Shown: positions 54,256 through 64,000 of the stretch, piece by piece
Layout: every line of letters starts with the position of its first letter
Position numbering within the stretch: the first letter of the stretch is position 1
Position numbers and translations under genes: made by a program
Virus record (IMG/VR): IMGVR_UViG_3300002307_000001
Location: 61,269-125,268 of that record
DNA: 64,000 nt
Strand: one strand, 5' to 3'
From: a virus
Notes under the pieces: generated by a model
Database searches by the model: none
Told to the model about the DNA's origin: nothing
Seen by the model: the letters and a program-made list of their open reading frames with translations, nothing else

Positions 54256-54347
54256 TAAACTAATAAACTTAATTAATTTATCTTTGCACTCTAGTTAGTT
54301 AGAGTAAAAATGTTTTTATATTTTTAATCAAAACAAAAACAAATAAA

Positions 54348-54632
54348 ATGTTAAAGCAACCAAGTACTGCACAATTAGTAGAAGTTCCTAACGAGGGACT
54401 TATTGCACTTATAGGTCAAGAAGTTCTGATCTTTTGTTTTAATTACTTTTACTATGGTAAATTAGTAGGAGTAAATACAAGCTGTATAAAACTTGAAAAA
54501 GTTTATCAAGTATTTGAAACCGGAACTTTTTCAGATAGTAAGTTTAAAGATGCTCAAAAATTATCCGATGAGTGGTATATACAGTTATCTGCAATAGAAT
54601 CATTTGGTAAATCATTTAAGACAACTTTTTAA
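54348..54632 (+). CDS. Sm/LSm/Hfq-like fold protein
   Basis: LIALIGQEVLIF....YYGKLVGV....IKLE (Sm1-like) and WYIQLSAIESF (Sm2-like); TATCTTTG box at 54279-54286. Confidence 0.65.
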   Translation: MLKQPSTAQLVEVPNEGLIALIGQEVLIFCFNYFYYGKLVGVNTSCIKLEKVYQVFETGTFSDSKFKDAQKLSDEWYIQLSAIESFGKSFKTTF

Positions 54633-54634
54633 TT

Positions 54635-54826
54635 ATGATAACATCTCATTTAAAAAAAATGAATAGGTCAGGGTCAAGGTCATGGTCATGGTCAGGGTCA
54701 GGGTCAAGGTCATGGTCATGGTCAGGGTCAGGGTCAAGGTCAGGGTCATGGTCATGGTCATGGTCATGGTCAAGGTCAAGGTCAGGGTCAGGGTCATGGT
54801 CATGGTCATGGTCAAGGTCAGTATAA
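54635..54826 (+). CDS. Ser-(Arg/Trp/Gly) dipeptide repeat peptide
   Basis: ATG 2 nt after the Sm-like stop; 10 aa leader then (R/W/G)S x26. Confidence 0.55.
   Translation: MITSHLKKMNRSGSRSWSWSGSGSRSWSWSGSGSRSGSWSWSWSWSRSRSGSGSWSWSWSRSV
54665..54820 (+). repeat. Hexanucleotide array (A/G/T)GGTCA x26
   Basis: GGTCA is invariant in all 26 units. Confidence 0.97.
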
Positions 54827-54834
54827 TACATTAC

Positions 54835-54870
54835 ACACTCTAGTTAGGTAACTAGCTAGAGTGTTCTTTT
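54835..54870 (+). terminator. Intrinsic terminator closing the Sm-repeat unit
   Basis: ACACTCTAGTTAG-GTAA-CTAGCTAGAGTGT-TCTTTT. Confidence 0.7.
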
Positions 54871-54875
54871 AAATT

Positions 54876-55325: not shown

Positions 55326-55396
55326 AGTTCCATAGTGTAACGGTAGCACAATTCTCTTTGACAGAATTAGATCTTGTTCAAATCAAGATGGAACTG
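55326..55396 (+). tRNA. tRNA-Gln(TTG)
   Basis: AGTTCCA/TGGAACT acceptor, GTGT/GCAC D arm, ATTCT-CTTTGAC-AGAAT anticodon arm, TTCAAAT T loop; CCA not encoded. Confidence 0.88.
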
Positions 55397-55431
55397 CTTA
55401 TAAATTATTACAGCTTATGGTTGTATTCGCC

Positions 55432-55509: not shown

Positions 55510-55815
55510 ATGGAGAAGAAATTACCAATAATAGGAATAATAGGACATGTAGATCATGGAAAAAGTACATTAACTGCAGCTATATGTAATGCATTAAAAA
55601 ATACTTATGATGTAATATTAGTAGACAATAAAACACAAACCATAGAGGCTAAAACATTAGAGCAGATAATGACAGAAAGTAAAATAGCAACATTCGAGTG
55701 CAAAAACTACCAAATACCTGACCTCGCTGTAGCTGACTATGCACCTAAATACGAACCAAAGAAACAACAGAACTACAAACCATATAAGAATAAGTTCACT
55801 AAAGGTAAAAGATAA
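55510..55815 (+). CDS. Small protein with an EF-Tu-like G1/P-loop segment only
   Basis: IGIIGHVDHGKSTLTAAI; 101 aa; no DxPG or NKxD motif. Confidence 0.65.
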   Translation: MEKKLPIIGIIGHVDHGKSTLTAAICNALKNTYDVILVDNKTQTIEAKTLEQIMTESKIATFECKNYQIPDLAVADYAPKYEPKKQQNYKPYKNKFTKGKR

Positions 55816-63533: not shown

Positions 63534-63878
63534 ATGCAAACAATACAGATTAATGAAATACAGGTTAATGGCTTAACTTATGTAATTAAAGGCTCTGAAA
63601 ATAATCAGATTAATTATACTGGTGAAATAAAAATAGTAGTATTACAGCGTGGATGGATATATGTAGGAAGATTTACAAGAGATGGTAATGACTGTAAATT
63701 AAATAATGCATATAATATTCGTACATGGGGAACTACTAAAGGGTTAGCAGAGTTAGTTCAAGGAGTAACATCATCTACTAAATTGGATAAATGTGAAGGA
63801 CTAGTTGAATTCGATTATCTTACAGTAGTACATACTATTTCAGTTAATCCTGAAAAATGGAAATCACTTATAAATTAA
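63534..63878 (+). CDS. Sm/SH3-like beta-barrel protein (DUF6948-like)
   Basis: IVVLQRGWIYVG...LNNAYNIRTWGTTKGLAEL. Confidence 0.55.
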   Translation: MQTIQINEIQVNGLTYVIKGSENNQINYTGEIKIVVLQRGWIYVGRFTRDGNDCKLNNAYNIRTWGTTKGLAELVQGVTSSTKLDKCEGLVEFDYLTVVHTISVNPEKWKSLIN

Positions 63879-63884
63879 TATGAA

Positions 63885-64000
63885 ATGGATAATAGAATAG
63901 CCGTTAATTTCGAAAATACCCAGAATTCCTATGGAAGTGGATATGGATATGGACATGGAACTGGAGATGGAAGTGGAAATGGATATGGAACTGGAGATGG
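63885..64000 (+). CDS. Gly-X dipeptide repeat protein, truncated by the window end; NNTGGA array from 63930
   Basis: MDNRIAVNFENTQNS-YGSGYGYGHGTGDGSGNGYGTGDG... Confidence 0.7.
   Translation, partial: MDNRIAVNFENTQNSYGSGYGYGHGTGDGSGNGYGTGD

What the first reader, a model, noticed from the sequence alone, without database searches (positions are those of the whole stretch)
54279..54870. Self-contained Sm/Hfq-like gene plus a variable hexamer array (NGGTCA x26): candidate undescribed system
Seen: a TATCTTTG promoter box, a 94 aa gene with Sm1/Sm2-like motifs, then 2 nt later an ORF with a 10 aa leader and 26 in-phase hexamers, then a terminator. GGTCA never varies: every Ser codon is TCA and there is no synonymous drift. 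The first base is A, G or T (never C) in an aperiodic order, giving RGRWWGGRWWGGRGWWWWRRGGWWWR. Known: Sm/Hfq rings are hexa- or heptameric and bind short periodic RNA. Inference: either the array RNA is the ligand or scaffold of the ring, or the S-R/W/G peptide is a low-complexity partner (condensate, amyloid or decoy). I know of no characterised function for such a pair.
Basis: partly seen in the sequence, partly recalled or inferred. Interest (0 to 1): 0.85.

Follow-up and report, generated by a model that had tools for sequence, protein, structure and literature searches.

The report
Phage Sm-like protein with Ser-repeat microprotein
A freshwater phage carries a small two-gene cassette, an Sm-fold protein followed by a tiny gene for a fast-changing serine/tryptophan/arginine/glycine repeat peptide; the same pairing recurs in hundreds of uncultured phages, is not described in print, and its function is still unknown.

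Summary
Window 54348-54632 encodes a 94-aa protein with a confident Sm/LSm fold. Two bases later, 54635-54826 encodes a 63-aa peptide: a 10-aa basic leader, then 26 in-phase NGGTCA hexamers, then a hairpin terminator.

The array is a translated gene, not an RNA ligand. In all 80 of 80 related viral loci examined, the Sm-like gene is followed by a start-codon ORF with a basic leader and a (Ser-X)n core. All six Ser codons occur across loci, and several arrays mix them.

X is Gly, Trp or Arg because the variable codon is almost always NGG. The single Trp-free array uses NNC with Tyr instead.

No third gene is conserved nearby, and arrays change by unit gain or loss between phages with identical Sm genes.

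The same genome holds a second, sequence-unrelated pair at 63534-64000: an Sm-like fold protein plus an (X-Gly)n peptide. That type also occurs in cultured Rheinheimera and Rhodobacter phages.

My best reading, inferred rather than shown, is an oligomeric hub plus a separately encoded disordered tail.

The scan had already noted this module on at least nine other DNAs. My literature searches found no description of it.

The parts
54279..54286 (+). TATCTTTG box, candidate Bacteroidota-type -7 promoter element
   Evidence: Present but not significantly enriched (11 matches against 5.45 expected). The promoter reading rests on recalled consensus.
54287..54305 (+). Short hairpin containing the first copy of the 12-mer CACTCTAGTTAG. 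It lies in the 5' leader, or at the recombination edge of the cassette.
   Evidence: Exact second copy at 54836-54847. Similarity to relative L005 starts at 54293. Folded as a stem.
54348..54632 (+). Gene for the 94-aa Sm/LSm-fold protein (family 1)
   Evidence: ORF. 67 homologues. 516 clusters at 50% identity. AF2 model pLDDT 92.8. Sm/LSm top matches. No Pfam or PHROG match.
54635..54826 (+). Gene for the 63-aa repeat microprotein. Basic leader at 54635-54664, (X-Ser)26 core at 54665-54820, then Val and stop.
   Evidence: A homologous leader plus (Ser-X)n ORF sits downstream of the Sm-like gene in 80 of 80 viral loci. Net charge +9, pI 12.
54835..54874 (+). Intrinsic-terminator-like hairpin with T-rich tail. 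It contains the second 12-mer copy and its near-complement.
   Evidence: Conserved in relative L005.
63534..63878 (+). Gene for a 114-aa protein with an Sm-like fold (family 2, weak DUF6948 match). It is the partner in the second cassette.
63885..64000 (+). Start of the second repeat microprotein gene: a 15-aa leader then (X-Gly)n on NNTGGA hexamers. It continues across the junction of the record.
   Evidence: The same pairing appears in 22 of 22 related loci and in phages Barba1A, RcapNL and MW202748.

Best explanation
This is a self-contained, horizontally shuffled phage cassette of two translationally coupled genes.

Gene 1 makes a small, slightly acidic protein with an Sm/LSm fold. By analogy with that fold it probably assembles into a ring.

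Gene 2 makes a strongly basic, probably disordered microprotein. It has a conserved Lys/Arg-rich N-terminal leader followed by a (Ser-X)n core, where X is mostly Gly, Trp or Arg.

Most likely mechanism (inferred): the leader docks the peptide onto the Sm-like oligomer. The complex then works as a hub carrying several detachable low-complexity tails that bind RNA, other nucleic acid or partner proteins during early infection. This is the split-gene counterpart of Sm/LSm/Hfq proteins with fused Arg/Gly-rich or repeat tails.

The core evolves by slippage or unequal recombination of hexamer units. An aromatic codon (Trp TGG) fixes the last two bases of the variable codon, so new variants arise almost only through its first base.

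Shown here: both genes are real and always linked, selection acts on the peptide, gene 1 has an Sm fold, and the array turns over quickly.

Inferred: ring formation, docking through the leader, and a nucleic-acid-related role.
For: Linkage:
- 10 of 10 loci carry an array.
- 77 of 80 viral loci carry an ORF with at least 8 Ser-X repeats directly after the Sm-like gene.
- The other 3 carry the same leader with 1.5-4 repeats.

Peptide-level selection:
- Ser codon counts across loci are TCT 1608, TCA 361, TCG 343, AGT 102, AGC 64 and TCC 45, with mixed codons in some arrays.
- The Ser-X frame is open in 82 of 82 unique arrays and is the frame that starts with a start codon next to the Sm gene's stop.
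- Leaders are conserved and basic.

Coupling: the gap is 2 nt here, and starts overlap or abut the upstream stop in relatives.

Fold: pLDDT 92.8. Foldseek top hits are all Sm/LSm. VIA-align gives Z 10.5, rmsd 2.4, 73 residues aligned to 1loj_A, and 35 chains reach Z>=8.

Charge complementarity:
- Family 1: partner median -2 (pI 5.1), peptides median +9 (pI 12).
- Family 2: partner +1 (pI 7.7), peptides -7.

Independence of context: the next most common neighbour family is in 9 or fewer of 80 loci. Similarity to L006 and L010-L013 is confined to the cassette.

Fast array turnover: 4 of 14 groups of loci with nucleotide-identical Sm genes differ in the array.

Codon anchor: Gly is GGG in 675 of 710 cases in arrays, against 63 of 439 in the Sm genes. 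The only Trp-free array (L066) uses NNC codons with Tyr, and its Gly is GGC in 6 of 6.

Precedent for Sm domains binding short peptides: LSm14/4E-T (6f9w) and Edc3/Dcp2 (4a54) are among the structural matches.

A second, sequence-unrelated Sm-like fold in the same genome has the same two-gene layout.
Against: - I could obtain no evidence for oligomerisation, for protein-peptide contact or for RNA binding. The tools fold single chains only.
- The protein matches no LSM, Hfq or Phage_Hfq profile at E<=1 and no solved structure by sequence. The Sm2 'RG'-type loop (recalled motif) is not visible in alignment A1.
- I saw no fused Sm+repeat protein that would prove a physical link. None of the 67 close homologues is longer than 103 aa. 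None of the 23 odd-length proteins I read, out of the 150 listed, carries a repeat tail.
- Some loci carry up to 8 peptide genes per Sm gene. That fits an effector family with one helper as well as it fits a 1:1 complex.
- There is no expression evidence. RNA-library contigs matched only the neighbouring tRNA.
- The partner's net charge is small, so the charge complementarity is modest.
Confidence: 0.4

Rival explanations
1. RNA-level model. The hexamer array acts as RNA, as ligand or scaffold of the Sm-like ring, and its translation is incidental.
For: Within this array, five of six bases never vary. The variable codon is NGG far beyond what coding requires: GGG in 675 of 710 Gly codons, against 63 of 439 in the neighbouring genes. 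UGGUCA units are RNA quasi-palindromes, and the transcript folds with z = -5.5. Both array types in this genome carry GG every 6 nt.
Against: Across relatives the nucleotides change while (X-Ser)n is kept, including the TCN to AGY switch and mixed codons within arrays. A start codon and a conserved basic leader are always in the Ser-X frame. The self-pairing depends on TCA and is lost in the TCT, TCG and AGT lineages (reasoned units). The Trp-free array L066 has no GG periodicity and uses NNC codons. Family-2 arrays mix Gly codons within one locus.
Confidence: 0.05
2. Effector plus helper. The Trp/Arg-rich peptide is itself the active agent, either membrane-active or toxic in the manner of synthetic (RW)n antimicrobial peptides, or a hypervariable decoy or inhibitor aimed at a host defence or host protein. 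The Sm-like protein only chaperones or neutralises it.
For: The composition is strongly cationic and aromatic: pI 12, with W 510 and R 460 of the variable positions in 82 unique peptides. Some phages carry up to 8 tandem peptide genes per single Sm gene. The array changes fast between otherwise identical phages. Partner and peptide have opposite charge. The cassette lies among small early-type genes and next to the repressor region in RcapNL.
Against: The peptide has no signal peptide and no hydrophobic stretch. The sister family pairs the same kind of fold with acidic Tyr/Asn/Asp-Gly peptides, which do not resemble cationic antimicrobials. I did not scan against the defence library. The cassette is not near lysis genes in this window. 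The resemblance to (RW)n peptides is recalled, not tested.
Confidence: 0.2
3. RiPP-like system. Gene 2 is a leader-core precursor peptide and the Sm-like protein is its recognition element for a modifying enzyme.
For: The peptide has a conserved leader and a hypervariable core. The small partner gene is always adjacent.
Against: No third gene is conserved within 1.5 kb on either side; the next family is in 9 or fewer of 80 loci, and most of those loci are near-identical contigs. The partner has an Sm fold, not the winged-helix fold recalled for RiPP recognition elements.
Confidence: 0.05
4. Diversity-generating retroelement or other targeted hypermutation acting on one base per hexamer.
For: Variation is concentrated in the first base of the variable codon in both array types: NGG and NAY/NNT.
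Against: No reverse transcriptase (PF00078) is found in the complete 125-kb genome, while the control genomes did give matches. There is no template copy of the array elsewhere in the genome; only two arrays exist. Differences between near-identical phages are unit gains and losses rather than point changes.
Confidence: 0.02

Closest known systems
Eukaryotic Sm/LSm proteins with fused low-complexity tails (SmD1, SmD3, SmB Arg-Gly repeats; LSm4). Recalled from general knowledge.
   Same: An Sm fold is combined with a dipeptide-type, Arg/Gly-containing, disordered repeat. The eukaryotic tails add multivalent weak interactions to a ring.
   Different: Here the tail is a separate, translationally coupled gene with its own leader. 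The repeat is Ser-X with much Trp. There is no sequence similarity to LSM profiles. Ring formation and RNA binding are untested. The setting is a phage.
Borg Sm ribonucleoproteins with N-terminal amino-acid tandem repeats (PMC9879509; passages read)
   Same: Sm-type proteins on a mobile or viral-like element are combined with perfect, rapidly evolving, slippage-type tandem repeats that are predicted to be disordered. The authors propose docking functions.
   Different: The Borg repeats are fused to true Sm proteins that keep the Sm1 and Sm2 motifs, and their units are 4-17 aa. Here the units are dipeptides in a separate microprotein, and the partner is Sm-like at fold level only.
T4 GoF / MotB.1 / Frd.2 LSm-like fold family (PMC12152347; abstract and passages read)
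   Same: Small early phage proteins with a predicted LSm-like fold and no sequence similarity to cellular Sm or Hfq.
   Different: [quoted passage not shown] I did not test for sequence relatedness.
PDB 3by7, an Sm/LSm-like protein from an uncultured marine organism
   Same: It is the best structural match of the second partner protein (family 2): Foldseek E 9.4e-4, TM 0.64 normalised to the target. It also matches the family-1 model at Z 7.4.
   Different: There is no sequence-level match to either family: 0 hits for A3 and only chance hits for A2. Its function is unknown.
Hypothetical proteins Barba1A_gp018/gp017 (Rheinheimera phage, MK719701), RcapNL_00047/00046 (Rhodobacter phage, JQ066768), and the product annotated 'lamprin' in MW202748
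   Same: These are members of the sister cassette: a family-2 Sm-like protein plus an (X-Gly)n peptide. It is the same cassette as the one at 63534-64000 of this window.
   Different: They pair with acidic Tyr/Asn/Asp-Gly peptides, not the Ser-X type of the finding. All are annotated without function, and 'lamprin' is a composition-driven name.

Membership tests
Sm/LSm/Hfq superfamily (fold level) | A five-stranded, strongly bent antiparallel beta-sheet (small barrel), usually preceded by a short N-terminal helix | tested here: met
   The AF2 model has pLDDT 92.8 with strands 25-30, 34-42, 46-57, 68-79 and 83-88, plus a short helical turn at 19-21. All top Foldseek hits are Sm/LSm. VIA-align gives Z 10.5 to 1loj_A, and 35 chains reach Z>=8.
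Sm/LSm/Hfq superfamily (sequence level) | A match to the curated profiles (Pfam LSM, Hfq, Phage_Hfq) | tested here: not met
   No Pfam family at E<=1 and no PHROG at E<=0.1. No solved structure matches by sequence. The ESM Atlas gives only weak leads to LSM (0.83) and Phage_Hfq (0.81).
Sm/LSm/Hfq superfamily (sequence level) | Sm1 motif Gly and Asp/Asn, and the Sm2 'RG' (or Hfq 'YKH') loop that forms the nucleotide pocket. These motifs are recalled, not taken from a call. | tested here: inconclusive
   Alignment A1 has invariant G37 and N43 where an Sm1-like pattern would place them. The loop before the last strand reads S81-A82, with no Arg-Gly. I obtained no residue-level structural alignment.
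Sm/LSm/Hfq superfamily (function) | A homo-oligomeric ring of 5-7 subunits that binds RNA | not testable with these tools
   Only single-chain prediction is available, and there is no experimental data.
DUF6948 (PF22253), for the second partner at 63534-63878 | A score above the Pfam gathering threshold of 27 bits | tested here: not met
   17.8 bits, E 0.0038, covering residues 48-111. This suggests a distant relative but is below the cut-off.
RiPP precursor/recognition system | A modifying enzyme gene conserved next to the precursor | tested here: not met
   Clustering of all ORFs within 1.5 kb of 80 loci shows that no family other than the Sm-like gene is in more than 9 loci.
Diversity-generating retroelement | A reverse transcriptase and a template repeat in the same genome | tested here: not met
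   PF00078 gives 0 matches in the 125-kb genome, while controls gave matches. Only two dipeptide arrays exist and they are unlike each other.

The most novel reading that the evidence does not exclude
The cassette is a minimal, evolvable condensate-scaffold kit. An Sm-like ring presents five to seven separately encoded 'sticker-spacer' tails (Trp/Arg stickers on Ser/Gly spacers here; Tyr stickers on Gly spacers in the sister cassette). Together these nucleate an RNA-protein compartment in the infected cell. Repeat slippage and first-base codon changes tune its material properties from one phage generation to the next. This genome, with one basic and one acidic version, could even form a two-component coacervate.
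Probability: 0.12. Interest if true: 0.85.

Novelty: new variant of a known kind. Interest (0 to 1): 0.62.

Why it matters
If the two products work together, this is a very common building block of phage early regions that nobody has characterised. Family 1 has 516 clusters at 50% identity, and family 2 has more than 1000 clusters at 90% identity.

It splits an Sm-type hub and its low-complexity tail into two genes, so the tail can change length and composition within a few generations without touching the folded partner.

It would give a simple bacterial or phage model for how dipeptide-repeat, aromatic/arginine-rich sequences act, a question otherwise studied mainly in eukaryotic RNA granules.

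It would also explain a recurrent class of unannotated or mis-annotated 'repeat' regions that break phage assemblies. Both arrays of this lineage tend to sit at contig ends.

Cultured members exist (Rheinheimera Barba phages, Rhodobacter RcapNL), so the question can be tested directly.

Tried and rejected
- RNA-ligand model: rejected on synonymous turnover.

- Homology between the two partner families of this genome: BLASTP gives E 15 and hhalign gives probability 4%. No detectable sequence relation, only a shared fold class.

- Obligate pairing of the two cassettes (two-component idea): family 2 was found in only 1 of 32 contigs that carry family 1, and in 1 of 15 that are at least 90% complete. 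The general form of the idea is rejected.

- Fused Sm+repeat proteins: none seen. I did not use the 'longer' length search of the search for homologous proteins, so fusions longer than 165 aa among close relatives were only covered by the length-free profile search. That search listed 150 of its 516 hits, and I read 23 of those.

- Conserved third gene: none.

- Cellular homologues: only 19 loci in the collection of one genome for each of 185,579 species. All are metagenome-assembled contigs and none is from an isolate.

- Expression evidence: one run holds the stretch (share 0.98) and is probably its source. 23 others hold small shares. Of the 4 RNA-library runs I laid, one contig matched only 55335-55370 inside the tRNA gene and three gave nothing. 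There is therefore no evidence for or against transcription, and I draw no habitat conclusion from the small shares.

- ESM Atlas for the peptide: no usable hit.

- Literature: 'DUF6948' returned 0 papers. Searches combining dipeptide repeat, bacteriophage and Sm-like, phage, glycine-tyrosine, repeat and hexanucleotide, and phage, Sm-like, LSm, low-complexity, repeat peptide and microprotein found no description of the pair. The Barba phage paper has no occurrence of gp017, gp018, glycine, tandem, indel or hypervariable. The RcapNL papers mention an anti-CRISPR directon in RcapNL, but I could not tie it to the cassette.

- Promoter box: not statistically supported.

Full report
**What is there.**
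- The window is the last 64 kb of a 125,268-bp virus record.
- It has a structural module on the minus strand: major head protein, portal, large terminase.
- It also has a block of small plus-strand genes between about 42 and 64 kb.
- GC content is 33%.
- At 54348-54632 lies a 94-aa ORF. Its TAA stop is followed 2 nt later by an ATG at 54635.
- That ATG opens a 63-aa ORF (54635-54826): a 10-residue basic leader, 26 hexamers and one final Val codon.
- Tandem Repeats Finder reports period 6, 25.8 copies, score 212, plus a 30-nt higher-order period.
- The units are TGGTCA x11, GGGTCA x8 and AGGTCA x7.
- A 13-bp hairpin with a T-rich tail follows at 54835-54864.
- The TATCTTTG box at 54279 exists but is not statistically distinctive.

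**The protein.**
- It matches no Pfam or PHROG family and no solved structure by sequence.
- With an alignment of 49 homologues, AlphaFold2 gives a model of mean pLDDT 92.8 with five strands.
- Foldseek's best PDB matches are all Sm/LSm proteins, at E about 1e-3 and TM 0.75-0.80 on the target.
- The Foldseek-independent search gives Z 10.5 (rmsd 2.4, 73 residues) to an archaeal SmAP1. 35 chains reach Z>=8, and the listed ones are essentially all Sm/LSm, with Hfq chains listed just below at Z 7.1-7.8.
- So the Sm-like fold is real, but membership is at fold level only.
- Ring formation and RNA binding could not be tested.

**The linkage.**
- The word-index search found 67 homologues, 85-103 aa long, all from metagenomes.
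- A profile search of 1.84 billion representatives found 516 clusters at E<=1e-3.
- In IMG/VR, 291 stretches encode a relative, of which I examined the best 80.
- 77 of the 80 have, directly after the Sm-like gene, an ORF with at least 8 Ser-X repeats.
- The remaining three (L071, L111, L116) have the same kind of leader followed by only 1.5-4 repeats.
- The pairing is therefore 80 of 80.
- Some phages carry 2, 3 or up to 8 tandem peptide genes.
- A GenBank phage from Manatee Spring has two, each start overlapping the preceding stop.
- No other gene family is shared by more than 9 of the 80 neighbourhoods.
- Nucleotide similarity between this window and more distant relatives stops at the cassette edges.
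- In a collection of one genome for each of 185,579 species, only 19 loci were found, all on metagenome-assembled contigs.

**Peptide or RNA?**
- Relatives keep (X-Ser)n but write Ser as TCA, TCT, TCG, TCC, AGT or AGC. Counts are 361, 1608, 343, 45, 102 and 64, not de-duplicated.
- This includes the TCN/AGY switch, which cannot happen by one synonymous step.
- Several arrays mix codons, for example L062, L065, L070, L110 and L036.
- The Ser-X frame is open in 82 of 82 unique arrays. The +1 frame is open in 81 of 82 and the +2 frame in 28 of 82.
- Openness alone therefore does not choose the frame.
- Only the Ser-X frame has a start codon beside the upstream stop, a conserved Lys/Arg-rich leader and a conserved amino-acid pattern.
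- The +1 frame reads Gly-Gln/His, Gly-Leu, Gly-Arg or Gly-Val, depending on the Ser codon.
- The long RNA helices predicted for this transcript (z = -5.5) come from UGGUCA pairing with itself through G-U pairs. That property disappears with other Ser codons.

**A codon-level peculiarity.**
- In 82 unique peptides the variable residue is G 710, W 510, R 460 and E 72, with every other residue at 27 or fewer.
- Gly is written GGG 675 times of 710, and Arg is written AGG or CGG 440 times of 460.
- The neighbouring Sm-like genes use GGG for only 63 of 439 Gly and AGG/CGG for 13 of 39 Arg.
- So the variable codon is NGG, and G/W/R is exactly what NGG encodes.
- The minor residues (E, V, M, K, Q, L) are almost all NNG codons.
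- The sister family behaves the same way with NAY: Y 254, N 186, D 99 and H 9 of 560.
- My explanation is inferred. Units are homogenised by slippage and unequal recombination, and the one residue that must be present is aromatic and has a stop-prone codon (TGG or TAY). The last two bases are therefore held fixed and only first-base variants survive.
- One natural test supports this. The only Trp-free array among the 82 (L066) uses Tyr instead, and all its variable codons end in C, with Gly as GGC in 6 of 6.
- This also argues against a universal GG-every-six-bases nucleic-acid signal.
- No reverse transcriptase is present, so a diversity-generating retroelement is excluded.

**Rate of change.**
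- I compared 14 groups of loci whose Sm-like genes are nucleotide-identical.
- Six groups showed different peptide sets. Two of these differences are only truncation at contig ends.
- The other four are real: unit gains or losses, a gene-number change and one substitution.

**The second cassette.**
- At 63534-63878 a 114-aa ORF is followed 6 nt later by an ORF with a 15-aa leader and NNTGGA hexamers encoding (X-Gly)n. It runs off the window and continues at the start of the record.
- The record's 46-bp 'direct terminal repeat' lies inside this array. It may therefore be an assembly effect, and the true copy number is uncertain.
- This protein has more than 1000 homologues (1084 at E<=0.01).
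- It has a sub-threshold DUF6948 match and a model of pLDDT 79.
- Its best PDB match is the Sm/LSm-like protein 3by7.
- Of 22 related loci, 20 have at least 8 X-Gly repeats downstream and the other 2 have 6-7.
- Cultured examples are Rheinheimera phage Barba1A gp018/gp017 and Rhodobacter phage RcapNL 00047/00046.
- In GenBank record MW202748 the repeat product is annotated 'lamprin'.
- The two partner families show no detectable sequence relation.
- They co-occur in only 1 of 32 family-1 contigs. This genome's possession of both is unusual, and the two cassettes are independent.

**How it probably works.**
- Shown: two real genes, always together, translationally coupled, with selection on the peptide, a conserved leader, a fast-changing core and an Sm fold for the partner.
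- Suggestive: opposite net charge of partner and peptide in both families. Family 1 is -2 against +9, and family 2 is +1 against -7.
- Also suggestive: structural neighbours in which an LSm domain binds a short peptide of a partner (6f9w, 4a54).
- From this I infer a hub-plus-detachable-tail complex acting on RNA or other nucleic acid early in infection.
- Confidence is 0.4 for the mechanism and about 0.85 for 'translated peptide functionally paired with an Sm-fold protein'.
- Rivals are: the peptide as the effector with the Sm-like protein as helper (0.2), a RiPP-like system (0.05), an RNA-level role (0.05) and targeted hypermutation (0.02). The remainder is unknown.

**Comparison and novelty.**
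- The closest published things are Sm/LSm proteins with fused low-complexity tails (recalled).
- Next are Borg Sm proteins with N-terminal perfect tandem repeats (PMC9879509, passages read).
- Third is the T4 GoF LSm-like fold family (PMC12152347, abstract and passages read).
- None of these describes a split Sm-like/dipeptide-repeat gene pair, and my literature searches found no such description.
- Within this scan the module had already been noted and followed up on at least nine other DNAs, with the same general conclusion.
- Added here: both cassette types co-reside in one genome but co-occur rarely. The NGG and NAY restriction is quantified against controls, with the Trp-free exception.
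- Also added: the charge complementarity, the absence of any third conserved gene, and the exclusion of a retroelement.

Noticed in passing
window 63534-64000 and the first 57 bases of the record (L002): A second cassette of the same layout: a 114-aa Sm-like fold protein plus an (X-Gly)n peptide on NNTGGA hexamers. The record's 46-bp 'direct terminal repeat' lies inside this array, so the terminal repeat and the array length may be assembly effects.
   Followed up: yes
window 54287-54298 and 54836-54847 (near-complement at 54852-54863): An exact 12-mer brackets the cassette. The downstream copy is the left arm of the terminator hairpin. Similarity to the closest differing relative (L005) begins at 54293, inside the upstream copy, and L005 lacks that copy. 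It may be a recombination edge or a 5'/3' pairing element.
   Followed up: partly
window 55326-55397: A tRNA-Gln (anticodon UUG) lies 460 nt downstream of the cassette. It is conserved at 88-96% identity in relatives L004 and L005. It was the only part of the stretch matched by an RNA-library contig.
   Followed up: partly
window 55510-55815: A 101-aa ORF matches only the first ~70 positions of the EF-Tu-type GTP-binding domain (PF00009, E 1.4e-8). It is a stand-alone P-loop fragment of a translation-factor GTPase.
   Followed up: no
window 31530-34970 (minus strand): The large-terminase ORF is 1146 aa. Its middle (about residues 460-750) also matches primase/DnaC-helicase-loader-type PHROGs. 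This suggests an inserted domain or an intein-like element.
   Followed up: no
window 54665-54820: UGGUCA is an RNA quasi-palindrome (U-A, G-C, G-U, U-G, C-G, A-U), so this particular array is predicted to form long internal helices. The whole transcript has z = -5.5. The property is specific to the TCA lineage.
   Followed up: partly
L138 1140-1454 (GenBank MW202748): The (X-Gly)n partner peptide of the sister cassette is annotated 'lamprin' in a public phage record. This name is evidently driven by composition.
   Followed up: partly
L066 (IMG/VR contig), downstream of its Sm-like gene: This is the only Trp-free Ser-X array among the 82 unique ones. Tyr replaces Trp, and every variable codon ends in C (TAC, CGC, GGC, CAC, TGC).
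   Followed up: partly
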